From IMG/VR virus record IMGVR_UViG_3300042945_000786, positions 1-52,740 of that record: 52,740 bases of DNA. The stretch is one strand, 5' to 3'. A model generated the notes under the pieces. It was given only the letters and a program-made list of their open reading frames with translations. It ran no database searches and was not told the DNA's origin. Within the stretch, counting starts at the first letter, position 1. Every line of letters begins with the position of its first letter. Of the stretch, positions 17,495 to 26,464 are shown one piece after another. Source of the DNA: a virus. Its lineage: Duplodnaviria; Caudoviricetes. The translations under genes and the position numbers were made by a program.

Positions 17495-20400
17495 TCAGAT
17501 GTCCCTCATGAGTTGGTTGGCGCGAGCGGTGAGTTGCTGCCTCCGCTCGTCCAGCCTCTCCAAAATGAGACGCTTCTGGTCTTCAGGTAGTCTGCCTTCC
17601 CTGACCTGACGCATCTGTCTGGAGAGTTTCCTGAGAGCATTGTCAATCGCACGAACGGCGCCAGAGACTTTCAGTTCATCAGAGAAGCGCTCACGGGCAT
17701 CAGCAAGGCGCTCCGTGTTGCCCTCCTCTACGGCAGCCTTGACCTCATCAAGGGCGGTCAGGACGCGGTTCCTCTTCTCGACGTAGGCGCCTGTGTCTTC
17801 CCTTGTCGTGACGGTGCCTATGATCTTCCCGAAGATCGGAACATTCCTGACCACATCTTCAGAGAAGCCCTCATCATACGCCCTGAACGGCGTCTCTGCC
17901 GTCCTGATGACAAAGCGACCGACGCCACCTGTCAGATACTCAAACCAGAAGTCGATGAGATCAGGTGACACATCGACCATACCCTTCACTTCTGTCGTGC
18001 CGCCGGTGACAGAGTTCATGGCGTTGGCCAGCCATACAGCCGGAACACTTGTGGTTGACCAGTAGAGTTGGCTGGAGGGAGTCCTGTCGCCGGGGAAGCC
18101 TTCCTTATAGACAGGCTGGTTGGCAAAGTTCTCGTTCTGCCAAATGTCGATGAACGGATCGAGCACGGTTGGGGAGGCCGCGTTGGCAAAGCTCTCGCTA
18201 CCGCCAATCGGGTTAACCGTATCCAGCATGGTGCCGACAATGCTCCCGGCAGCCTCGCTTGGCTCATACGCTCCGCGCGACAGACGTCCCATGGCGCGGC
18301 CCAAGTTGTGCGCCATGTTCAGGCCGTAGGGCATCGGGATGGAGATGTACGAGCGATCAGTGAAGCCGAAGACATCAGGCAGGATCAGGTTGTGCTCGAG
18401 GACGTACTCAGGAATCTTGTCGTAGAGCTTCTCGCCATCCTCATCGTCTCCCGACATTATGGCATTGAGGTAGTCCTGCATGATGCCAACGCCGATTGCG
18501 GCAGCCCAGAACTTCTGAACCTTCTTTGACCTGAGTGCCGCGTTCAGCATGGCGAAGGAGCCCTGAAGCGAGGCGTTGTAGAACAGGTACATGGCGTTCA
18601 TGAACGTCTTGTAGTCGCCGCCCTTGGCAAAGTTGACGGTGATGTTCCGGGCAGCCTGAGCCGCACGCTGAGGCGTGAAGCCCTTGTCGAGTAGGGCCTT
18701 GTAGGTTGTGACGCGGATGCCGTTCTCGATGACCGTGTTGTAGTCCTCGACGAAGCTAAGGAGGGACATCGCCCCCTTGCCCACGAAGCCGTTCTTCACG
18801 CGGTTGAACTGCTTGCGCGCACCGCTGTCGGCGATGTCGCCGATGATGCCGCTGATGTTGTTCATCTGGTCGGCAACCGTGTTGACTTGGTTCGTCGCGT
18901 TCTGGCCCCCGTTCTTCACGAAGTCACGGTAGATTCTGGCCCACTCGGAAGAGTTGTCGTTGTTGCGGATGGATTGCTTGATGCCGCGAAGTGCACCCGG
19001 AACATCCCTCACGATCTTCCGCGTCAGGCCATCGATCTCGTACTGAGCCACGTTCACGCCCGCAGTCTGAAGGTCGCGGAACATGTTGGTGATGAAGAAG
19101 GCCGGGTTGAGAGAGGTGTTGATGCTAGCCAAGTACCGGTTGATTGTCGCCAAGGCACGGATCAGCCCGTTGTTGTGAGTGGGCGACATGCTCCCCTTGA
19201 GGGCGGATGCGATGGCATCGCTCTCCAGTTTGACGATGACCTCCTTGCCGTCCTCCTTCACGACAAAGATGTCTGGCTCGTTGCGGAAGTTCGGATCGAG
19301 CACGGTCTGGACGGTCTGGACCACCGTGCCGTCAGCGCGCTTGCGCTCCACGAGGACGCGCTTCTGCACATCCTTCATGTCGCCCGGCTTCAGGATGCGG
19401 CCATAGCCCTTGGTCTTGGCGGGGTCGGAGCGCAGCAGTTGCAGGAAGGACTGGCCCACCTTGTTCCGCTCTGCCCTGATGATCGCGTTCTGGTTCTGCA
19501 CGAGCAGGTTCGGGATGATATTGTCAGCGTAGTCGTAGCGACCCAGAGAGCGCCGGTCCTCCCTGCGGCGGGCACCGTACATGGGCGAGCGATACGGCCC
19601 CGTGGCCTGCTCATCCACCGGCTCTCCAGAAGGGTCGCGCTTGCCACGCAGGGGGACGTAGTTGTCGTACTGAGGAACATCGACCGTGTCCCCGGTGGTG
19701 GGGTCTGTGTACTGGAAGAACTCCCTCGGGATCAGGCCACCCTCAAGGCGGACATCGTTGGTCGACTGCACGATCCTCTGCGTAGCGTCGGCGATCTTCT
19801 GCATCGTGCTGGCGTAGGGGCTGCTTGCGAACCAAGCGAGGATCGCGTCGGCCTCACCGTCAGTCATGCCAGAGCCAGCATCGTTCTCTGGGTCGATGCC
19901 ACGGATGTACTCGTTCCGCTCCTTGGCATGGCTGGCGTAGAGGAAGATGTCAGCCATCGAGAGAGCGTTGCTGCGTGTGTCATTGAAGGCCACATCGGCG
20001 AAGCCACGGCCAACAGATGCAGAGTTGGACGCCGCGATGAGTTGCTGCTTGGCTTGGTCAGTGACCTTGAGGCTGCCGACGAGGTCGATGAGCGGGCGGT
20101 ACAGGTTGGTCTGTGCCTGCTCCACCTTCTCCCCAACCACGCCGTGGTAGAGTTCCTCCTGCATGTAGGTGTCCATGGCGTCGGTGATGTTCAGGCCATT
20201 GGCCCGAAGCTCATCGATCATCCGACCCACGGGGATCATGCCGTCTTGGAACTTCTTGATGATGCCGTCAGCGATCTGCTTGGAGCGTGCATCGTCTGCC
20301 CCGATGCCGGTGATGCGAAGGCCTTTTGCCAACAGGTCAGCAGCCTTCGAGTAGACCACGTTGGTCTGCTTCTGTGCCGTCTGGCGCTGGACCTTTCCGG

Positions 20401-23400
20401 CAACAGAGTTCCGCGTCGGCACCATGGACTGCCGCACCAGAGGCGTTGGAGATGGCGCTGAGGTGGGCTCTTGGGCTGGCATGTCGCCAGCCCTGCCCTC
20501 AGTCCATGTCCAATCAGGCATGAGGCCAGTCTTCTGATCCGCGAAGACAGTGTCCTCGACCTTGGCATTCCGGTTCGAATCGCCATAGGGTCCGTAGTTC
20601 AGCCAAGAGTTCTGGCCACGAGTTTCCGATGTGATTGCCCCAACGGCAGAGCCGGTGAAGAGGCGCACATGCGCCTGCCAAGCGTTCTCTTCGCCACGGG
20701 CGCGGAAGCCAGAGCCCTCTAGGCCGTGGCCGAATGCGTCGTGAACGGCACGGAAGAGGTCATTGGCGAGGACTGGCGCCGTCTGCTCGCTATCGGGTGA
20801 TCCAACCGGCCAGCGAAGACCGGTGTCCTCGAGCATGGGGTTGTCTTCGACATTCAGTTCGGTCGCGCCAGAGCCAAAGCCTCCCGCTGTTGGGAAGACG
20901 CCCATCTGCTTGTTCGCCCTGATATCGCGCAGTGCGTTCCAAGGGGATGACAGATATGCCTCGTTGTCAGGGCGAGACAGATCGGTGAACCAGAACTGGT
21001 AGCCATCCTGCGCCAGCGCATTGTACTGCGCCAATGTCTGGCGAATCAGGTTCTGGTATGCCTCCCTAACCTTGGGGTCTTGCGGCGCATGAGGCATGGC
21101 GTCGTACGCCGCAGCAATGCGCGCCGCTCGCTCGGGATCGACATCGACGTACTCTGACTGGCGGCTAAGATCGAGCCCGATGCTCTTGGCGTACTTGTCG
21201 GCGATGCGAACAAGACTTGGGTCAGGACCAGTGAAGCCCTCGACGCGGGGCGCTCCGGGCAGCGGCTCTAGCGGCGAGAGAGCAACTGCTCGTTCTGGTG
21301 CTGCCAGCGTGCGAGCCTCAGTTTCCCGAGTTCCAAGTCCTCCGACTCCTCGTCCGGGGACGGCTGAATATCGATCCGCTTCGCGACCTCCGGTAATTCT
21401 TCTCTGGCGCGGACGTATTCCTCCACCGGCAGCGCCTGCCCCTCGTCCAATTCCCTCAACTCTATCGGCATATCCGACAGAAGCTCCGCTTGCTCGTCTG
21501 CCGACGGATCGGTCGAGGCGTACGCCAGCCAGTTCTCCCTCGTAAGAGGAAGGCGCAATTTTACCAGCAGCCCCACCACCGGGTCCAAACCAAGTAGGCT
21601 CATTGATACCTCCCATGAACCGTTCAACATCGTCCCGCGCGGATTCGACGGAACGCTTCCCCTCGTTAACCTCACGCCAGATGCCATTAACTCTGGCAAC
21701 CTTCGCCTTGCTGCGCTTCTCCTCAGCAGGGAAGAGACCGCGCACAGCCTCCCAAGTGATCGACTGAAGTTCACGCGCCGTGATCCCAAGCGACCCAGCC
21801 GTCCTCCTGTAAGCCTCAGCGTATATACCATAGACACCGATAGCGCCAGTGTCTCCAATGCTCTTTGCTGCAATCCAGCCTTGCGGCTGCTTAGCCTTCG
21901 CCGGGCTGGACCCAAAGTTATGATGAACTTCTGCGCTGCTCCCAGATAGCGGGCGGATCAGTGCTGCGGCAACAGCGTGGGTATCGATGGTGACATCGCC
22001 ATGGGGCGCATCAGGGGCGAGGATGTTGTTGAAGAAGTTCCTGACCTTGTGCTGGTCGCCCATCGCAAGGCTCGTGGCCTCACGGCTCTGGTGCGTCAGG
22101 ACATAGATGGCCTTGGCGATTTCAACATTCGACCCCCAGCCAACCTTGCCTGACGGATCGCCGATGAAGTCACCCTCAGCGCTGACGGTGCGGTAGCCTC
22201 TCGGGTTGTAGGTCTCGTCGTATAGGCGAAGCCACATGGCCTTCAGGACCGGGTCTTCCAGACCGGCGTAACTGTTGGACATGACAATGCGGAGGGCGGG
22301 AGCGTATTGCTCCTTTCCGTAGATGCGCTGTGCCGTCTCGGCCATCTCCACGGTCGGCGTGAACGCGATCATGTTGCCGCGAGAGAAAGTCTGGTGGATG
22401 TCGATCAGGCGCTCCGCCAGAGAGACGTTCTGATACCAGTCCTTTTGAGGCGACAGAGCGGCGAGAACCCCAGCGACCGTAAAGTCTGGAATCTGGTACT
22501 GACCAGACATCCGCTCGGCGATCTTGCGAGCGCCGTTGTACCACAACTTGGACCGCTTCCTGATCTCTTGAGGCACGCGGTTGTGGAGCCACAGCAGGTT
22601 GTCGGAGACAAACTGGATGAAGTCTTCTGCGATCTGGTCAGGGTCTTCAGATGCCGTCACGAACCCCGGATAGCCCTTGATGACCTGCATGTTGTGAGCA
22701 AAGGCCTGCGGGCTCTGCTTCATCGCGTTCAGGTCGACGATCAGGTTCTGCGTCAGCGGGTCTTCGGTCGCCCTCTTGGTGTAGGGCTGCCGAGTAGAGA
22801 TGCGATCTTCAGTATCGCCAGACGCCATGATCCGAGTAATGGCTTGGCCCTCGGCCCAGTCATTGAAGTCAGCGACCTTTTCGCGGTCATACACGCCGTC
22901 TGTCTTGAACGCCCCCTCAGATGCAAGCACCATCGAGAACCGACGATACGGCTTCGGCCCGCGCTCGTAGACGCGCGTCTCTGACGGGTAGAAACTGTGG
23001 ACATAGTGGAACGGGTCTGGCGTCAGCCTGTTGTTCTCGGACAGGACGAGACGTAGACGCGGTGCCTTGAGCGGGCGGTTGTCGATCCACTCGAGCGCGA
23101 ACTGATCACCGTCCTTGCCGCCGATGACGGAGTCGCCGTTCCTCATCCCCTGCTGCTTCCAGACCTGAAGCATGTCGAAGATGGCCTTGTTGACGTCCTT
23201 GTACTTGGACATCTCGTAGAGTTCTTGGTCGTGCTTGCGGGCAATGATGTGCTTCAGCCCGTACCCGGTATCGACACCACGCTCACGGAAGATGTGCTCG
23301 CCGACAGGCAGGATGACCGACTGCTTCCTGCCACGGTAGTCAATGATATTGCCGTAGGAGTAGGAGTCAGTGCCGTCCCTGTTCTTCACGGGAGACGGCA

Positions 23401-26400
23401 CAGGCATGAACGACTTGCGTTCGCGGGGGTCAGCCGCGATTGCGACGGCAAGGTCGTCAAGTTGCCGGTTCAGGTCGGCCAGTTCTTCGGGGGACAACTG
23501 GTCATCGACAGAGACATCAGCCTCTGCCGTCGGGACTGCGGCGGGAGCGGCGGCTTGAGCGGCAGGAGCGGCGCCACGCGGCCTTGCTCCGATCTCACCG
23601 TAGCGGATGCCCTCGAAAATCTTCTCGACCGAGTCGAAGCCACGCTCGGTGTGTACCCCGATGATGGCCTTGAAGAAGTTCTTGAGGCGCTCGAAGATCG
23701 TCTTCTGCGGTCCTTTGACCGTGGTCTTGCCATCAAGGTAGTCGCGGAAGAGTTCTGCGACAGCCTCCTCCTGAATGACCGCCTCATCGTACCCCATGGC
23801 ACGGGCGCGCTCTTCATAGGTGTAGCTGCGCTCGACAGGTTTGCCCTGCTTGATCGCGACGTACTTCTTGTTCTTGGCGTAGGCGGTGAGTGTGTTCCAC
23901 TCTGCGTCAGTGATGACACCCATCAGGCGAAGGGCGTGGATCACCTCGTGGTTCATGACGCTGGCGATGGAGTCGAACAACTCCTGATCGGTCATGCCCT
24001 TGCGATAGATACCCATCGACAGGCTGATGATCCGCTTGACAGGATCGTACTTGCCCTCGGCAACACCCATGACCTTGCCAGACTGGTCGCGGGCCAGCAT
24101 GGCCTGAGCGCCCTCAAGGCGAACCTCCTTGAGGCCGAGGTTGTTGAGCCGCTTGCGCAGGGCTGCAAACACATTCTGCTGCTGTGCCGTGAAGATCGGT
24201 GTGTAGTTCACCGGCTCCTTCATCGTGGCAGCATTGAAGCGGGCCTGACCTGCGGCCTCACGCTCCTTTGCGGCCTGCACCGTGGCGGAGGGGTCGCGGA
24301 GTCGTGCCGTGGCTGTGTCGCGCAGTTTCTTCAGATCGGCTGCTGTCTGCTCCAGTTGCTGAAGCCGTGCCTTCTGAGCATTGTTCAGTTGAACTTTTTT
24401 CTGCCGCTTGCGGAGATTAGCAGCCTGTTTCTCCGCATCACCGATCTGCTGGTTATAGCCAGCGATATTCTGCCGCAGCGTCTCCATCCGCTGCTGGATG
24501 GCTGGTGCCGTCGCTTCGGTGACAGGCACAGCCACCTTGGCAGCATCCAGCGCCACACGCTCTACGGACGGGATGGCGCCAGCCTGCTTCGCGTTCTTGA
24601 TCTCGGTCTCAGCCGCAGCGACGCGAGCCTTCGCTGCCTCGATTGAGGCATCAAGGGTGTCGAGCTTCTGGTTGAACAGGGCGGGATCGGCCCTCTTCCC
24701 GGTCGAGTCCTTGCCGGTCTGCTCTACGCGGCGGACTTCCTCGATGAGGTTCTTCCGCTCCTTCTGCGACAGATCGATCTGCTTGTTCAGCCCGTCGATC
24801 TCCTGACGCAGGCCGGTCTCGATGCTATCGGTGCGGGCGATGGGCTCGAGACTGTAGCCAGTGCGAGACTTCGTGTCAGCGCGTATCACGCCGCGAGACA
24901 CCATCTCGTCGCGGATGTCGCGGACCACCGTGTTGGGAACCTTCGCCTTGGTGATGTCCCTCACAGCCTTCTGAATCTTGGGGAAACTGACGCCCTTGTC
25001 AGCCTTCACCTGTTGCACCGCGCGGTCGTACTGCTCTTGGGTGAAGGTCTTGTTCTCCACCGGGCCGAAACGAGCAATGCCGCCAGTGACGGGCTTCTGC
25101 TTCTTCGCCTCGCGCTCGGAAGCGGCAGTGCCGACGATGGCTTGCAGTTCCTCTAGCGTGACTTGAGGGAACGGTTCCTGACCGGCGTTGGCACGCGCCT
25201 GAGAGATGGCAACGCGCTCTTCCATGGGGAGACTTGTGAGGGCCACAGGGCGGGTAGGTGTGATAGCCTCCATACCCGCACGACCACGCAGCGCTGTCTC
25301 TTCCTGAGGCGTCGTACGGGCCGTGGATGGAGCGGGTAGGGCAAGAGGCGCAGCCTCCGGGGATGCGACCTTTTCAGCGGCTTCTGCTGCCCGGCTCTCT
25401 CGTGCGTTCTGGATGTACTGGTCGCCGCGAGCGCCCAGTTCCTCCATGTCCTCGTCGAGTTCTCGCTTTTTACGCTCCGCTTCTTCCTTGCGGCCAGTGA
25501 CAAGAGCGCCGCCCGCAGCGCCGATACCGCCACCAAGGACGGCGGCTCCGAGTGCAGCCTCGCCATAGCGTTGAATTGCCTCCTCGCTGAGAGGGTCTTT
25601 GCCAGCCTGAAGAATGCCGAGCAGTTCCTGACCAAGTTCAGTCGGCACCTCAGTGACAACGCCACCCGCAGCACCTCGCGCGGCACGGGTGAAGAGACCG
25701 CCCTCAGCGGCCTTCTTCAGGACGTTTGCGCCATACTTGGCTCCGACAGCAGACAGGACACCGTCGAGCAGAGATGCCGGTGCAGCGGCAAGGGCAGCAG
25801 CGCCTTCGCTCACCTCAACGGGGCGACCCGCCTCGATGTCAGCCTCCTTCTGCTGCTCGCGGAAGTCGCCATAGAAGTACGGTAGAGACGCGAGGGCAGC
25901 ACCACCGAGGGCACCAACCGTCCCGCCGACAACGGCGCCTACCGGCCCACCGAAAGCGCCAATTGCAGCACCGGCCTTTGCGCCAGCGTAGCCACCAGCA
26001 AGTGCGACGGCGGTCTGCGGCGCAGAACCACCAGCAATTTCGCCAACGTAGCTTGCGGCACTGCCGATTGCGCCCTGAGCCTCGCGCTCCTTCTCGAGGG
26101 CGGCAGCCTCAGCCAGACGATCAAGCTCAAGACCCTGACGCTCCGCGATACCAGCGCCGTATCCAGCAAGGCTCTCGAGCCCAGTGACGGTGCCGATGCC
26201 CTCCAGAGCGGAGCCGTATGCTCGGCCTAGCCCGGCTAGCCCTACGTCGATGCCGCGACCGAATGCGGTGGTGTCTTCAGGGGGAGCGGCTTCAGTCGCG
26301 ACCGGAGCCCCGAACATCGACTCATACCGCGACTGGAACGCAGACTCTTGCTGCGCCACATACTGATCGATCCGGGCTTGCTCTGCTGGGGTCGGTACGT

Positions 26401-26464
26401 CCCCCGCGATGTTGACAGCATACTGCGTGCCGCTGAAGGCACCGGGGACGTATATGACGGCCAT
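17495..26464 (-). CDS. Large polyvalent internal virion/ejection protein (2989 aa)
   Basis: Gly/Ala-rich N-terminus, coiled coil, HEVIH+EEAVAE zincin, GYGLKHI..KH BECR-type nuclease-like domain, HhH-glycosylase-like domain, RAVHDAFGH domain, LPD38-like C-terminus; last gene of the ejection cluster. Confidence 0.85.
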   Translation of the reverse strand: MAVIYVPGAFSGTQYAVNIAGDVPTPAEQARIDQYVAQQESAFQSRYESMFGAPVATEAAPPEDTTAFGRGIDVGLAGLGRAYGSALEGIGTVTGLESLAGYGAGIAERQGLELDRLAEAAALEKEREAQGAIGSAASYVGEIAGGSAPQTAVALAGGYAGAKAGAAIGAFGGPVGAVVGGTVGALGGAALASLPYFYGDFREQQKEADIEAGRPVEVSEGAAALAAAPASLLDGVLSAVGAKYGANVLKKAAEGGLFTRAARGAAGGVVTEVPTELGQELLGILQAGKDPLSEEAIQRYGEAALGAAVLGGGIGAAGGALVTGRKEEAERKKRELDEDMEELGARGDQYIQNARESRAAEAAEKVASPEAAPLALPAPSTARTTPQEETALRGRAGMEAITPTRPVALTSLPMEERVAISQARANAGQEPFPQVTLEELQAIVGTAASEREAKKQKPVTGGIARFGPVENKTFTQEQYDRAVQQVKADKGVSFPKIQKAVRDITKAKVPNTVVRDIRDEMVSRGVIRADTKSRTGYSLEPIARTDSIETGLRQEIDGLNKQIDLSQKERKNLIEEVRRVEQTGKDSTGKRADPALFNQKLDTLDASIEAAKARVAAAETEIKNAKQAGAIPSVERVALDAAKVAVPVTEATAPAIQQRMETLRQNIAGYNQQIGDAEKQAANLRKRQKKVQLNNAQKARLQQLEQTAADLKKLRDTATARLRDPSATVQAAKEREAAGQARFNAATMKEPVNYTPIFTAQQQNVFAALRKRLNNLGLKEVRLEGAQAMLARDQSGKVMGVAEGKYDPVKRIISLSMGIYRKGMTDQELFDSIASVMNHEVIHALRLMGVITDAEWNTLTAYAKNKKYVAIKQGKPVERSYTYEERARAMGYDEAVIQEEAVAELFRDYLDGKTTVKGPQKTIFERLKNFFKAIIGVHTERGFDSVEKIFEGIRYGEIGARPRGAAPAAQAAAPAAVPTAEADVSVDDQLSPEELADLNRQLDDLAVAIAADPRERKSFMPVPSPVKNRDGTDSYSYGNIIDYRGRKQSVILPVGEHIFRERGVDTGYGLKHIIARKHDQELYEMSKYKDVNKAIFDMLQVWKQQGMRNGDSVIGGKDGDQFALEWIDNRPLKAPRLRLVLSENNRLTPDPFHYVHSFYPSETRVYERGPKPYRRFSMVLASEGAFKTDGVYDREKVADFNDWAEGQAITRIMASGDTEDRISTRQPYTKRATEDPLTQNLIVDLNAMKQSPQAFAHNMQVIKGYPGFVTASEDPDQIAEDFIQFVSDNLLWLHNRVPQEIRKRSKLWYNGARKIAERMSGQYQIPDFTVAGVLAALSPQKDWYQNVSLAERLIDIHQTFSRGNMIAFTPTVEMAETAQRIYGKEQYAPALRIVMSNSYAGLEDPVLKAMWLRLYDETYNPRGYRTVSAEGDFIGDPSGKVGWGSNVEIAKAIYVLTHQSREATSLAMGDQHKVRNFFNNILAPDAPHGDVTIDTHAVAAALIRPLSGSSAEVHHNFGSSPAKAKQPQGWIAAKSIGDTGAIGVYGIYAEAYRRTAGSLGITARELQSITWEAVRGLFPAEEKRSKAKVARVNGIWREVNEGKRSVESARDDVERFMGGINEPTWFGPGGGAAGKIAPSSYEGELAGVRLDRSVGRRASGASVGYADRVEGIGRGAGAAGGGIRPRQRRITGGREADRYSAVPGRGVGGLGTRETEARTLAAPERAVALSPLEPLPGAPRVEGFTGPDPSLVRIADKYAKSIGLDLSRQSEYVDVDPERAARIAAAYDAMPHAPQDPKVREAYQNLIRQTLAQYNALAQDGYQFWFTDLSRPDNEAYLSSPWNALRDIRANKQMGVFPTAGGFGSGATELNVEDNPMLEDTGLRWPVGSPDSEQTAPVLANDLFRAVHDAFGHGLEGSGFRARGEENAWQAHVRLFTGSAVGAITSETRGQNSWLNYGPYGDSNRNAKVEDTVFADQKTGLMPDWTWTEGRAGDMPAQEPTSAPSPTPLVRQSMVPTRNSVAGKVQRQTAQKQTNVVYSKAADLLAKGLRITGIGADDARSKQIADGIIKKFQDGMIPVGRMIDELRANGLNITDAMDTYMQEELYHGVVGEKVEQAQTNLYRPLIDLVGSLKVTDQAKQQLIAASNSASVGRGFADVAFNDTRSNALSMADIFLYASHAKERNEYIRGIDPENDAGSGMTDGEADAILAWFASSPYASTMQKIADATQRIVQSTNDVRLEGGLIPREFFQYTDPTTGDTVDVPQYDNYVPLRGKRDPSGEPVDEQATGPYRSPMYGARRREDRRSLGRYDYADNIIPNLLVQNQNAIIRAERNKVGQSFLQLLRSDPAKTKGYGRILKPGDMKDVQKRVLVERKRADGTVVQTVQTVLDPNFRNEPDIFVVKEDGKEVIVKLESDAIASALKGSMSPTHNNGLIRALATINRYLASINTSLNPAFFITNMFRDLQTAGVNVAQYEIDGLTRKIVRDVPGALRGIKQSIRNNDNSSEWARIYRDFVKNGGQNATNQVNTVADQMNNISGIIGDIADSGARKQFNRVKNGFVGKGAMSLLSFVEDYNTVIENGIRVTTYKALLDKGFTPQRAAQAARNITVNFAKGGDYKTFMNAMYLFYNASLQGSFAMLNAALRSKKVQKFWAAAIGVGIMQDYLNAIMSGDDEDGEKLYDKIPEYVLEHNLILPDVFGFTDRSYISIPMPYGLNMAHNLGRAMGRLSRGAYEPSEAAGSIVGTMLDTVNPIGGSESFANAASPTVLDPFIDIWQNENFANQPVYKEGFPGDRTPSSQLYWSTTSVPAVWLANAMNSVTGGTTEVKGMVDVSPDLIDFWFEYLTGGVGRFVIRTAETPFRAYDEGFSEDVVRNVPIFGKIIGTVTTREDTGAYVEKRNRVLTALDEVKAAVEEGNTERLADARERFSDELKVSGAVRAIDNALRKLSRQMRQVREGRLPEDQKRLILERLDERRQQLTARANQLMRDI
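21268..21603 (-). CDS. Nested +1-frame gene inside the polyvalent gene (111 aa, acidic; candidate immunity protein)
   Basis: GGGAGGT-ATCA-ATG at 21603; MSLLGLDPVVGLLVKLRLPLTRENWLAYA...; host frame is Gly/Arg low-complexity with many A/T-ending codons here. Confidence 0.7.
   Translation of the reverse strand: MSLLGLDPVVGLLVKLRLPLTRENWLAYASTDPSADEQAELLSDMPIELRELDEGQALPVEEYVRAREELPEVAKRIDIQPSPDEESEDLELGKLRLARWQHQNEQLLSRR

What the first reader, a model, noticed from the sequence alone, without database searches (positions are those of the whole stretch)
21268..21603. Hidden gene nested out of frame in the giant virion protein, directly after a glycosylase-like domain: candidate embedded immunity system
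Seen: inside the 2989-aa gene a strong SD (GGGAGGT-ATCA-ATG, 21603) opens a 111-aa +1-frame ORF that reads like a real protein (MSLLGLDPVVGLLVKLRLPLTRENWLAYASTDPSADEQAELLSDMPIELRELDE..., acidic, Leu-rich), unlike the Ser/Arg/Pro shadow ORFs elsewhere in this gene. Over this span the host frame becomes Gly/Arg low-complexity (GPGGGAAG..GRGAGAAGGG) with many A/T-ending codons, as expected if selection acts on the other frame. It starts right after the domain carrying AALSPQ..W, KV..F.NNI, VTIDTH and Y...YRR.A....Q..TW. Inference: a toxin-domain/immunity pair in which the antidote gene sits in the linker, so the pair moves as one cassette without breaking the polyprotein and protects the producing cell or phage DNA during late expression.
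Basis: partly seen in the sequence, partly recalled or inferred. Interest (0 to 1): 0.88.

Follow-up and report, generated by a model that had tools for sequence, protein, structure and literature searches.

The report
Real hidden gene inside giant phage gene
A small acidic protein is encoded out of frame inside a giant phage virion gene, right after a DNA-glycosylase-like domain that it is predicted to bind, and the same hidden gene recurs in dozens of related phages.

Summary
The 111-aa +1-frame ORF (21268-21603, minus strand) has GGGAGGT-ATCA-ATG. It is the only stretch of the 8970-nt giant gene where codon usage favours another frame (9 of 295 windows; main-frame GC3 0.35-0.42 against 0.73).

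It belongs to a family of small acidic proteins with no Pfam or PHROG model. In 80 viral loci chosen only by the upstream DUF7178 domain, a profile of the small protein hits the +1 frame just after the domain in 75, and no other frame. One miss has it further downstream and one could not be tested, giving 76 of 79.

Selection switches from the main frame to the nested frame at the domain's last Trp. Own starts are supported by SD+ATG enrichment, stops directly before the ATG, and an ATG/GTG swap.

The upstream domain's predicted fold is most like HhH-GPD DNA glycosylases (Z 8.0, middling). A complex model scores 0.89 against 0.00 for the best control.

The inhibitor or "immunity" role is inferred, not shown. 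Residues about 84-111 are a second +1 module that travels with the downstream domain.

The parts
21268..21603 (-). Nested +1-frame gene: 111 codons plus TAG. It encodes a small acidic protein (pI 4.48) and is called X here.
   Evidence: ORF. (coding signature in this frame). (homologous small proteins of 50-128 aa). (helical fold, pLDDT 77.9). (pI).
21608..21614 (-). Shine-Dalgarno GGGAGGT of the nested gene, 4 nt before its ATG. It is made from the Gly-Gly codons of the main-frame motif GGINEP.
   Evidence: Equivalent SD+ATG pairs occur in relatives: 44 of 69 distinct loci have an SD of at least 5 nt plus ATG within 20 codons, at 0.0319 per codon against 0.00074 background.
21439..21603 (-). 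Core module of X (residues 1-55: LG.DP..., PLTRENWL, MP.EL). It is the part conserved behind DUF7178 domains and the part predicted to contact the domain.
   Evidence: Alignments (invariant P19, T21, E23, N24, P46). Census. Selection. Interface residues 1-54.
21271..21354 (-). C-terminal module of X (residues 84-111: an acidic run, then G-K-L-R-L-A-R-W-Q-H-Q...). This is a second +1-frame element that travels with the downstream domain.
   Evidence: profile hits in the +1 frame upstream of the downstream domain in 62 of 70 distinct loci, none in the other frames.: +1 dN/dS 0.14 against main 2.07.
21590..22816 (-). Upstream domain of the giant protein (residues 1217-1625). It is Pfam DUF7178, and its predicted fold is closest to HhH-GPD DNA glycosylases. 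It ends with the motif GGINEPTW.
   Evidence: Pfam. (more than 1072 homologues). (model pLDDT 77.6, pTM 0.78). (3n0u Z 8.0; 20 of the top 21 rows are glycosylase-fold enzymes). (weak Ogg-HhH and AGOG leads).
21983..21985 (-). Codon of the invariant Asp (giant residue 1494, domain residue 278, motif VTIDTHA), a candidate catalytic residue. It lies in the predicted interface with X.
   Evidence: invariant column D278. (interface residues 278-279). (coordinates). The catalytic role is inferred from recall of EndoIII-type enzymes and was not tested.
21287..21589 (-). Main-frame linker of the giant protein (residues 1626-1726), Gly/Ala/Arg-rich. It is the out-of-frame read-through of the nested gene.
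   Evidence: composition. (poor codon usage). (main-frame dN/dS 1.85 in relatives).
20450..21286 (-). Downstream domain of the giant protein, starting with the motif SPLEPLPGAP. It has no Pfam family, and its homologues occur in many other polyvalent proteins.
17495..26464 (-). Giant host gene, 2989 aa, encoding a polyvalent virion-type protein (LPD38 near the C terminus). It lies beside genes for a DNA-ejection protein, an endolysin and tail proteins.

Best explanation
The stretch 21268-21603 (minus strand) holds a genuine protein-coding gene nested in the +1 frame of the giant virion gene.

Shown:
- It is a member of a conserved family of small acidic helical proteins.
- In related phages the family is encoded immediately behind the DUF7178 domain, in the +1 frame.
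- Purifying selection acts on the nested frame, while the large gene's frame drifts there.

Strongly indicated by sequence, translation not measured:
- It is translated from its own SD and ATG, which are built from the Gly-Gly-Ile-Asn codons at the end of the domain.

Inferred history:
- The small gene was originally the next gene after a DUF7178 gene, overlapping only its last few codons. In 18 of 67 loci it still is.
- In polyvalent proteins such as this one the large frame reads on across the small gene. The out-of-frame reading serves as a disordered linker to the next domain, and the partner gene ends up fully nested.

Inferred mechanism:
- The core (residues 1-55) binds the glycosylase-like domain over a face that includes its invariant Asp. 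It most likely holds the domain inactive in the producing cell until the giant protein is packaged and ejected, acting as a cis-encoded inhibitor or safety catch.
- The C-terminal ~28 residues are a separate module associated with the downstream domain.
For: Coding signature in the window:
- Main-frame GC3 is 0.35-0.42 against 0.726 for the gene.
- Codon-usage log-odds favour +1 in 9 of 295 windows of the gene, all at 21604-21245.

Family:
- 7 hits among 1.84 billion representatives, all 69-128 aa and aligned from residue 1 or nearly so.
- 24 proteins of 50-121 aa in the 5.8-billion set, including 85%, 97% and 99% identical 111-aa forms.
- No longer, fused form was found (weak evidence).

Census:
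- 80 viral loci were chosen only by the domain (43-65% identity). The X profile hits frame +1 in 75, frame 0 in 0 and frame +2 in 0.
- L041 is cut 21 nt after the domain. L076 has X 460 nt further on, behind an inserted module.

Selection:
- In one clade of 6 distinct sequences, 10 of 10 changes in X codons 27-56 are synonymous in X and non-synonymous in the main frame.
- In 23 distinct ungapped sequences, dN/dS after the domain's last Trp is 0.25 in X, 1.85 in the main frame and 1.70 in +2. Before the X start it is 0.15 in the main frame and 1.10 in +1.

Own start:
- 66 of 69 distinct loci have an ATG between the last +1 stop and the conserved Gly. The other 3 have GTG or TTG with an SD.
- 7 loci have a stop at -5 directly before an ATG at -4.
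- L095 has GTG where its sisters have ATG.
- SD (at least 5 nt) plus ATG occurs at 0.0319 per codon against 0.00074 elsewhere in the +1 frame.

Fold:
- X alone models with pLDDT 77.9 and is helical.
- The domain model has pLDDT 77.6. Its best structural matches are HhH-GPD glycosylases: 3n0u Z 8.0, rmsd 4.3, 186 aligned residues. Of the top 21 rows, 18 are DNA glycosylases and 2 are Qng1.

Binding:
- The complex score is 0.89 (median of 3 runs) and the best of 3 controls is 0.00. This mark was reached by 58 of 80 solved complexes and 2 of 110 mismatched pairs.
- The runs agree in at least 76% of contacts and the partner pLDDT is at least 62. Own alignments were used, so the calibration counts hold only roughly.
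- The interface takes in X residues 1-54 and 70-76, and domain residues including 123-124, 253-257 and 278-279.

Charge:
- Family median pI is 4.55, and 24 of 25 members are below 5.1.
Against: - No translation or binding data exist. The complex score is a model's confidence only.
- The glycosylase assignment rests on a middling Z (8.0; the tool warns that Z under about 13 is common for helical models). There is no Pfam HhH-GPD hit at E up to 1, no PDB sequence or profile hit and no Foldseek match.
- The predicted interface is not enriched in invariant domain residues. By my count, about 11 of 66 invariant residues lie in it, which is what chance would give.
- X is dispensable in some lineages. 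The complete genome behind L086, zth2-2 (L012), and L101/L107 keep LSPQKDW, HKVRNFYNN and VTIDTHAVAA but have no X homologue at E up to 1 in the record. CRP-738 (L013) also lacks it.
- For this exact lineage the only DNA relative is identical across the region (0 differences in 22603-20804). Frame-specific selection is therefore shown in relatives, not in the window's own clade.
- NG86 estimates in overlapping frames are biased and the sequences are related, so the ratios show direction, not magnitude.
Confidence: 0.6

Rival explanations
1. The gene is real and its product binds the DUF7178 domain, but it is not an inhibitor. It could be an obligate subunit, a folding or packaging chaperone, or an adaptor that travels with the giant protein. 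Alternatively it acts on a host target, for example as an acidic DNA mimic against host enzymes.
For: - The co-occurrence and predicted binding fit a subunit or chaperone as well as an inhibitor.
- The interface is not enriched in invariant residues (my count).
- Phages with intact domain motifs live without X, which is easier for an accessory factor than for an antidote.
- The ORF is bipartite, with a second module tied to the next domain. This suggests a bridging or assembly role.
- Motif-bearing free-standing ORFs occur in unrelated contexts (integrase plus N6 methylase, DUF927, zf-HC2), although their homology is weak.
Against: - The predicted interface includes the invariant Asp278-Thr279 and Pro123-Gln124, as expected if the active face is covered.
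- The small, acidic character resembles known glycosylase inhibitors (the comparison is from recall).
- No fold match to any known chaperone or subunit was found.
Confidence: 0.28
2. Programmed +1 ribosomal frameshifting. There is no separate gene. A fraction of ribosomes translating the giant gene slip +1 near the GGI.xP.W codons and make a truncated protein whose C terminus is the X sequence.
For: - The frame under selection switches exactly at the domain's last Trp, and the X residues upstream of that point are not conserved in the X frame.
- An SD-like GGAGG a few nucleotides upstream is also a known stimulator of +1 shifting in prfB (recalled).
- The offset is +1 in all 75 loci.
Against: - 7 distinct loci have a +1-frame stop one codon before an ATG at -4, leaving at most 4 codons for a shift. 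66 of 69 loci have an ATG and the rest GTG or TTG with an SD, including an ATG/GTG swap between sister loci.
- SD+ATG is 43-fold enriched over the +1-frame background.
- In L076 the X gene starts at the end of an inserted module in a different relative frame.
- No slow codon or stop in the 0 frame is seen at the window's junction.
- No in-frame domain-X fusion appears among the hits.
Confidence: 0.06
3. Relic. In this genome the nested frame is only the fossil of a neighbour gene that the giant gene has read through. It is no longer translated or needed, and the stretch now serves only as a linker.
For: - Selection in this exact lineage could not be measured, because the only DNA relative is identical here.
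- Some relatives have lost X, and L014 carries only a degenerate TQENYL remnant in +1.
Against: - The ORF is intact over 111 codons with a strong SD and ATG.
- All family-invariant residues are present.
- Full-length 111-aa homologues of 85-99% identity differ mostly by conservative changes.
- The codon signature of the nested frame is still sharp.
Confidence: 0.05
4. Chance shadow ORF, or a by-product of conservation of the main frame or of an RNA element.
For: Long alternative-frame ORFs are common in this G+C-rich gene.
Against: - Codon usage flips to the nested frame.
- Profile hits occur only in +1, in 75 of 80 loci.
- Variation has a three-base period, with synonymous changes in the nested frame.
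- The main-frame readings are not conserved.
Confidence: 0.01

Closest known systems
Rz1 embedded in Rz (phage lambda spanin genes), and the embedded genes of phiX174 (recalled, not tested here)
   Same: A complete gene lies inside another gene on the same strand, in the +1 frame, with its own ribosome-binding site. The two products are thought to act together.
   Different: - Here the embedding gene is a 2989-aa polyvalent virion protein.
- The embedded gene appears to be the older coding frame.
- The host frame over the overlap is an unconstrained linker rather than a functional domain.
- The arrangement grades, across relatives, from a short terminal overlap to full nesting.
Phage protein inhibitors of DNA glycosylases: Ugi of PBS1/2, p56 of phi29 (recalled)
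   Same: A small, acidic phage protein (pI 4.48) is predicted to sit on a glycosylase-like domain.
   Different: - The known inhibitors target the host's family-1 uracil-DNA glycosylase.
- Here the predicted target is the phage's own HhH-GPD-like domain, encoded on the same mRNA.
- No fold match to any solved protein stood out (best Z 3.4).
- I recall no natural protein inhibitor of an HhH-GPD enzyme, and a search of papers for 'glycosylase inhibitor' + bacteriophage + HhH listed 8 papers, none on such a pair by title or abstract start.
Toxin-immunity cassettes of polymorphic toxins and colicins (recalled)
   Same: An effector domain is followed immediately by a small cognate binding-partner gene, and the pair travels together among different multi-domain proteins.
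   Different: - Immunity genes normally lie after the stop codon of the toxin gene. Here the large frame continues through the partner gene.
- Toxicity and neutralisation are untested.
- Some lineages lack the partner.
Polyvalent proteins of phages and conjugative elements (Iyer et al. 2017, PMC5512222; passages found by word search only)
   Same: A giant virion-associated protein strings together many effector domains. The LPD38 domain is present.
   Different: The main text of that paper has no occurrence of 'glycosylase', 'overlapping' or 'frameshift' (its supplements could not be seen). A hidden reading frame in a linker is not part of that description.

Membership tests
Embedded (fully overlapping, same-strand) phage gene | Complete ORF inside a longer gene, on the same strand, in a different frame | tested here: met
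   21268-21603 lies inside 17495-26464 at offset +1.
Embedded (fully overlapping, same-strand) phage gene | Own translation start | tested here: met
   GGGAGGT-ATCA-ATG. Relatives: an ATG in 66 of 69 distinct loci and 43-fold SD+ATG enrichment. This is sequence evidence only; translation itself is not testable with these tools.
Embedded (fully overlapping, same-strand) phage gene | Purifying selection on the embedded frame | tested here: met
   dN/dS is 0.25 in X against 1.85 in the main frame. 10 of 10 core changes are synonymous in X. This was shown in relatives; the window's own clade had no informative DNA.
Pfam DUF7178 (upstream domain) | Score above the curated cut-off | tested here: met
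   95.9 bits against a cut-off of 27, E 3.9e-27.
HhH-GPD DNA glycosylase superfamily (upstream domain) | Two-lobed helical glycosylase fold | tested here: inconclusive
   VIA-align: 3n0u Z 8.0 (rmsd 4.3, 186 aligned). 18 DNA glycosylases and 2 Qng1 are among the top 21 rows, but Z is in the range the tool calls middling. Foldseek found nothing at E up to 0.001. Weak Atlas leads to Ogg-HhH and AGOG at 0.77.
HhH-GPD DNA glycosylase superfamily (upstream domain) | Sequence match to the family (Pfam HhH-GPD or solved members) | tested here: not met
   No Pfam family other than DUF7178 at E up to 1. No glycosylase in PDB sequence or profile searches.
HhH-GPD DNA glycosylase superfamily (upstream domain) | Helix-hairpin-helix followed by a Gly/Pro-rich loop and a catalytic Asp, in register with solved enzymes | not tested
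   An invariant Asp in VTIDTHA exists. Its equivalence to the catalytic Asp is from recall; no residue-level structural alignment was available.
HhH-GPD DNA glycosylase superfamily (upstream domain) | Base-excision activity | not testable with these tools
   Needs an enzyme assay.
Protein inhibitor or immunity partner of the adjacent domain | Physical binding to the domain | tested here: inconclusive
   The model supports binding but does not show it. Score 0.89, best of 3 controls 0.00. The mark was reached by 58 of 80 solved complexes and 2 of 110 mismatched pairs. At least 76% of contacts are shared between runs and the partner pLDDT is at least 62.
Protein inhibitor or immunity partner of the adjacent domain | Strict co-occurrence with the domain | tested here: inconclusive
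   Present in 76 of 79 testable loci. Absent from two complete genomes with intact domain motifs.
Protein inhibitor or immunity partner of the adjacent domain | The domain is harmful alone and is neutralised by the partner | not testable with these tools
   Needs co-expression and activity assays.
Programmed +1 ribosomal frameshift site | No independent start; a shift site with a slow or stop codon in the 0 frame; a fused product | tested here: not met
   Independent SD+start in nearly all loci, and a +1 stop directly before the ATG in 7 loci. No 0-frame stop at the junction. No fused forms found.

The most novel reading that the evidence does not exclude
The linkers of giant polyvalent phage proteins carry a hidden second layer of genes. 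Each effector domain travels as a cassette with its own small partner protein, encoded in the +1 frame at the domain's edge. What looks like a low-complexity linker is the out-of-frame read-through of these partner genes.

In this window two such modules are fused into one 111-aa protein. One is tied to the glycosylase-like domain upstream and the other to the domain downstream. The fused protein could clamp or silence both neighbours until the protein is ejected into a new host.
Probability: 0.35. Interest if true: 0.88.

Novelty: new variant of a known kind. Interest (0 to 1): 0.74.

Why it matters
1. It adds a well-supported, widely conserved overlapping gene to phage biology, seen in 76 of 79 sampled loci. 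Gene callers that forbid nested genes will usually miss it where it is fully nested. The family has no Pfam or PHROG model.

2. It gives DUF7178, a large family of unknown function with more than 1072 homologues in one search, two testable leads: a glycosylase-like fold and a dedicated small binding partner.

3. It shows a route by which multi-domain "polyvalent" proteins can grow. They can read through a neighbouring small gene in another frame, so the neighbour becomes both a linker and a nested gene. The intermediate stages are all visible among relatives.

4. If the partner is an inhibitor, it would be the first protein inhibitor of an HhH-GPD-type enzyme that I know of. It would also be an example of an enzyme delivered with its own safety catch encoded inside it.

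Tried and rejected
Searches that found no named relative:
- tblastn of X and of a short-form relative against 50,697 GenBank phage records: no match. No cultured, annotated phage with X was found.
- Pfam, PHROGs and PADLOC on X: nothing.
- PDB profile search with the X alignment: nothing.
- ESM Atlas on X: no usable hit.
- Fold search of the X model: best Z 3.4 in the PDB, and no BFVD match at E up to 0.001.
- Foldseek of the domain model against the PDB: nothing at E up to 0.001.
- PDB sequence and profile searches with the domain: only chance-level rows.

Attempts that were uninformative:
- Frame-specific substitution counting against the only close DNA relative failed. That contig has 143 differences over 8333 nt but none in 22603-20804.
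- A search for longer, fused forms of X found none, but the tool calls that weak evidence.
- Free-standing ORFs with the PLTRENYL-type motif (L016, L021, L022/L023) are not next to a DUF7178 gene and sit in unrelated contexts. Their homology rests on a pattern-seeded weak match, so I did not use them as evidence.
- A test for avoidance of main-frame stops inside X gave 0 observed T against 29.8 expected at 238 risky codons in 23 related sequences. That is only about 1.3 expected stops per sequence, and the sequences are not independent. The pooled Fisher test is circular for loci chosen as open, and I do not rely on it.

Literature searches:
- 'DUF7178': 0 papers.
- 'polyvalent protein' + glycosylase + phage: 2 papers (listing only).
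- 'overlapping gene' + 'polyvalent protein': 1 paper, irrelevant by its passages.
- 'glycosylase inhibitor' + bacteriophage + HhH: 8 papers (listing only).
- General overlapping-gene papers (listing only).

Full report
**What is there.**
The window is a 52,740-base virus record, 88% complete by CheckV, with about 60% G+C. The minus strand carries a 2989-aa ORF at 17495-26464. It has an LPD38 domain near its C terminus and a DUF7178 domain in the middle. Its neighbours include genes for a DNA-ejection protein, an endolysin, virion proteins and tail fibres.

Its ATG is at 21603, its TAG at 21270-21268, and it is preceded by GGGAGGT-ATCA. The 111-aa product is acidic, with pI 4.48.

**Is it more than chance?**
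ORF length alone is not. This G+C-rich gene has other same-strand shadow ORFs of 116-177 aa. The coding signature is what singles it out.
- Across 21604-21245 the main frame's GC3 drops to 0.35-0.42 against 0.726 for the gene. Its GC1 and GC2 rise to 0.73-0.82 and 0.68-0.72. This is the gene's normal pattern shifted by one base.
- A codon-usage log-odds scan shows the same. An alternative frame beats the main frame in 9 of 295 windows of the whole gene, all contiguous over exactly this ORF.
- The main-frame reading is 64% Gly+Ala+Arg+Pro+Ser, against 39% for the protein overall.

**The nested frame encodes a real protein family.**
- A full phmmer scan of 1.84 billion representatives found 7 proteins. 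All are 69-128 aa and aligned from their first residues, with the best at 56% identity and E 6e-29.
- A profile search of the 5.8-billion set found 24 proteins of 50-121 aa, including 111-aa forms 99%, 97% and 85% identical.
- None carries a Pfam domain. X itself matches nothing in Pfam, PHROGs, PADLOC or PDB sequences.
- The shared core is about 50 residues: LG.DP, then P-L-T-R-E-N-W/Y-L, then an acidic stretch and MP.EL. P19, T21, E23, N24 and P46 are invariant.
- Modelled alone it is a small helical protein (pLDDT 77.9, pTM 0.57) with no convincing structural neighbour (best Z 3.4).

**Position in relatives.**
Loci found through X itself are nested at +1 behind the same upstream domain in every lineage that holds a large gene: L007, L008, L009, L010/11, L017-L020 and L024-L027.

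For an unbiased count I fetched 80 viral loci using only the domain, at 43-65% identity. I then searched all three forward frames around the domain's end with the X profile.
- 75 loci hit in +1, none in frame 0 and none in +2.
- Of the 5 misses, L041 is cut 21 nt after the domain. L076 has X 460 nt downstream, behind an inserted ~165-aa module. L086, L101 and L107 lack it.
- X is therefore present in 76 of 79 testable loci.
- The GenBank phages zth2-2 and CRP-738 have the domain but no X. LS06-2018-MD07 has only a degenerate remnant.

**Which frame is selected?**
- In a clade of 6 distinct sequences, the X block around the PLTRENYL motif is identical while the main-frame reading varies.
- Of 28 substitutions in that clade, the 10 in X codons 27-56 are all third-position and synonymous in X, and non-synonymous in the main frame. 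The 6 in X codons 7-12 are all non-synonymous in X, and 4 of them are silent in the main frame.
- In 23 distinct ungapped sequences of the ~33-kb phage clade, pooled Nei-Gojobori ratios switch at the domain's terminal Trp:

| Region | Main frame dN/dS | +1 (X) frame dN/dS | +2 frame dN/dS |
|---|---|---|---|
| Before the X start | 0.15 | 1.10 | not computed |
| X start to the Trp | 0.30 | 0.77 | not computed |
| Trp to the X stop | 1.85 | 0.25 | 1.70 |

- These estimates are biased in overlapping frames and the sequences are related, so I use them for direction only.
- The window's own clade gave no information. The one close contig (98.3% identical over 8333 nt) has no difference in 22603-20804.

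**Separate gene or frameshift?**
The switch of selected frame at the Trp would also fit a +1 programmed frameshift. The evidence goes against that.
- 66 of 69 distinct loci have an ATG between the last +1 stop and the conserved Gly. The other 3 have GTG or TTG with an SD.
- Starts cluster at -4 and -14 codons, each behind AGGAGG-type sites.
- 7 loci have a +1 stop immediately before the ATG at -4.
- L095 has GTG where its sisters have ATG.
- SD (at least 5 nt) plus ATG occurs in 44 of 69 loci within 20 codons, at 0.0319 per codon against 0.00074 in the +1 frame of the rest of the domain.
- In L076 the gene starts at the end of another module in a different relative frame.
- No in-frame domain-X fusion was found.
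- In the window the SD and ATG are made from the Gly-Gly-Ile-Asn codons of the conserved GGINEPTW motif.

**How the nesting arose (inferred).**
Among 67 distinct loci with a complete X, the large gene stops inside X, a few codons after the Trp, in 18. It stops after X in 38, of which 31 stop exactly 38 nt later. It runs on to the end of the locus in 11.

The simplest reading is as follows. X was the next gene, overlapping only the end of the DUF7178 gene. The large frame was then extended across it. In polyvalent proteins this read-through became the linker to further domains. That also explains why the nested frame has the normal codon usage and the host frame does not.

**What the upstream domain is.**
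- DUF7178 is a large family: more than 1072 proteins of 224-716 aa at E up to 1e-5, and every one of the 120 listed carries PF23802.
- The model (pLDDT 77.6, pTM 0.78) has no Foldseek match.
- An exhaustive structural comparison ranks HhH-GPD enzymes first: Tm1821 OGG Z 8.0, Qng1 7.6 and 7.4, AGOG 7.0, Mag1 6.7, EndoIII 6.1 and 5.7, then OGG1, MutY and others. Of the top 21 rows, 18 are DNA glycosylases and 2 are Qng1.
- The tool warns that such Z values are middling for helical models, and there is no sequence-level support. Two weak Atlas leads point to Ogg-HhH and AGOG at score 0.77.
- The invariant Asp in VTIDTHA (giant residue 1494) recalls the catalytic Asp motif of EndoIII-type enzymes. 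That comparison is from memory and untested.
- So "glycosylase-like" is supported as a fold-level lead, not as a family assignment.

**Binding.**
A complex model of the domain (28-row alignment) with X (25-row alignment) supports binding but does not show it.
- The score was 0.89 (median of three runs: 0.82, 0.89, 0.90), and the best of 3 controls was 0.00.
- That mark was reached by 58 of 80 solved complexes and 2 of 110 mismatched pairs.
- The runs share at least 76% of contacts and the partner pLDDT is at least 62. My own alignments were used, so the calibration counts hold only roughly.
- The interface uses X residues 1-54 and 70-76. On the domain it includes 123-124 (the SPQ motif), 253-257 and 278-279 (the Asp-Thr of IDTH).
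- By my count the interface is not enriched in invariant residues: about 11 of 66, which is what chance would give.

**A second module.**
The last ~28 residues of the window's ORF (an acidic run, then G-K-L-R-L-A-R-W-Q-H-Q) were not in the predicted interface.
- Similar sequences appear in the +1 frame just upstream of the same downstream domain in loci whose upstream neighbour differs (L004, L005), and in L007 after the X stop.
- In 70 distinct loci fetched only by the downstream domain (65-88% identity), a profile of 10 long-form tails hits +1 in 62 and the other frames in none.
- In 36 distinct ungapped sequences, the ~13 codons before the domain start give dN/dS 0.14 in +1 and 2.07 in the main frame. 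The first 60 codons of the domain give 0.14 in the main frame and 1.57 in +1.
- Start evidence is weaker here. An ATG lies within 30 codons in 34 of 45 loci matched by my motif pattern, and an SD-like 4-mer in 14 of those. Most of these ORFs run 41 codons into the domain.
- The window's nested protein therefore looks like a fusion of two partner modules, one for each flanking domain. I could not test binding of the second module.

**Function.**
- Shown: a conserved, selected, separately startable small gene coupled to the DUF7178 domain.
- Supported by a model: it binds that domain.
- Inferred: - Against a strict antidote: the complete genome behind L086 and zth2-2 keep every domain motif without any X homologue.
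- A chaperone, subunit or bridging role remains a serious rival.

**Novelty.**
Embedded phage genes and enzyme-inhibitor gene pairs are both known kinds. I found nothing in print on this pair, on DUF7178, or on hidden genes in polyvalent-protein linkers. I rate it a new variant of a known kind, with a bolder general reading (partner genes hidden in linkers) that the second module makes plausible.

Noticed in passing
window 21271-21354 (-); loci L109-L188, about 60 nt upstream of the match start: A second conserved +1-frame module (a P-E-T-E-E-D-G type acidic motif followed by L-R-x-L-K-x-R) precedes the downstream 'PLEGAP' domain in 62 of 70 distinct loci. Purifying selection acts in +1 only. 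It often starts at an ATG just after a +1 stop, and usually runs 41 codons into the domain.
   Followed up: partly
L076 2397-3001: An extra ~165-aa module is inserted between the DUF7178 domain and the small gene, which then starts at the end of that module in another relative frame. The module was not identified.
   Followed up: no
window 20804-22603 against L002: The near-identical contig differs at 143 of 8333 positions but at none in this 1.8-kb block, which covers the domain, the nested gene and the start of the next domain. This could reflect recent recombination or a sweep of this cassette.
   Followed up: no
loci of the ~33-kb phage clade (e.g. L030, L034, L036): The large gene reads on across the small gene as a Gly/Ala/Pro/Arg-rich tail and stops exactly 38 nt after the small gene's stop in 31 distinct loci. 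No main-frame stop was seen where about 1.3 per sequence would be expected. Why the tail is kept open is unexplained.
   Followed up: partly
L014 (GenBank OP947163.1), about 2600-2750 of the locus: The +1 frame after a diverged copy of the domain holds only a degenerate K-Y-T-Q-E-N-Y-L remnant of the small gene. The host CDS is annotated 'methyltransferase'.
   Followed up: no
L016 2782-3138; L021 1339-1761; L022/L023 2059-2493: Free-standing ORFs with the L-P-L-T-R-E-N-Y/W-L motif sit beside a zf-HC2 protein, a DUF927 protein, and an integrase plus N6 DNA methylase. No DUF7178 gene is in these loci. It is uncertain whether they are true relatives.
   Followed up: partly
window about 23800-23900 (-), giant protein near residue 870: An H-E-x-x-H motif (HEVIH) is visible in the translation, with only a weak Peptidase_M13 hint at E 0.053. 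It may be a processing protease domain of the polyvalent protein.
   Followed up: no
P0034: A 531-aa protein named 'DUF7178 family protein' comes from a 120,930-base contig of the bacterium Jannaschia seohaensis, at 58% identity to the window's domain. This suggests prophage or cellular copies of the domain.
   Followed up: no
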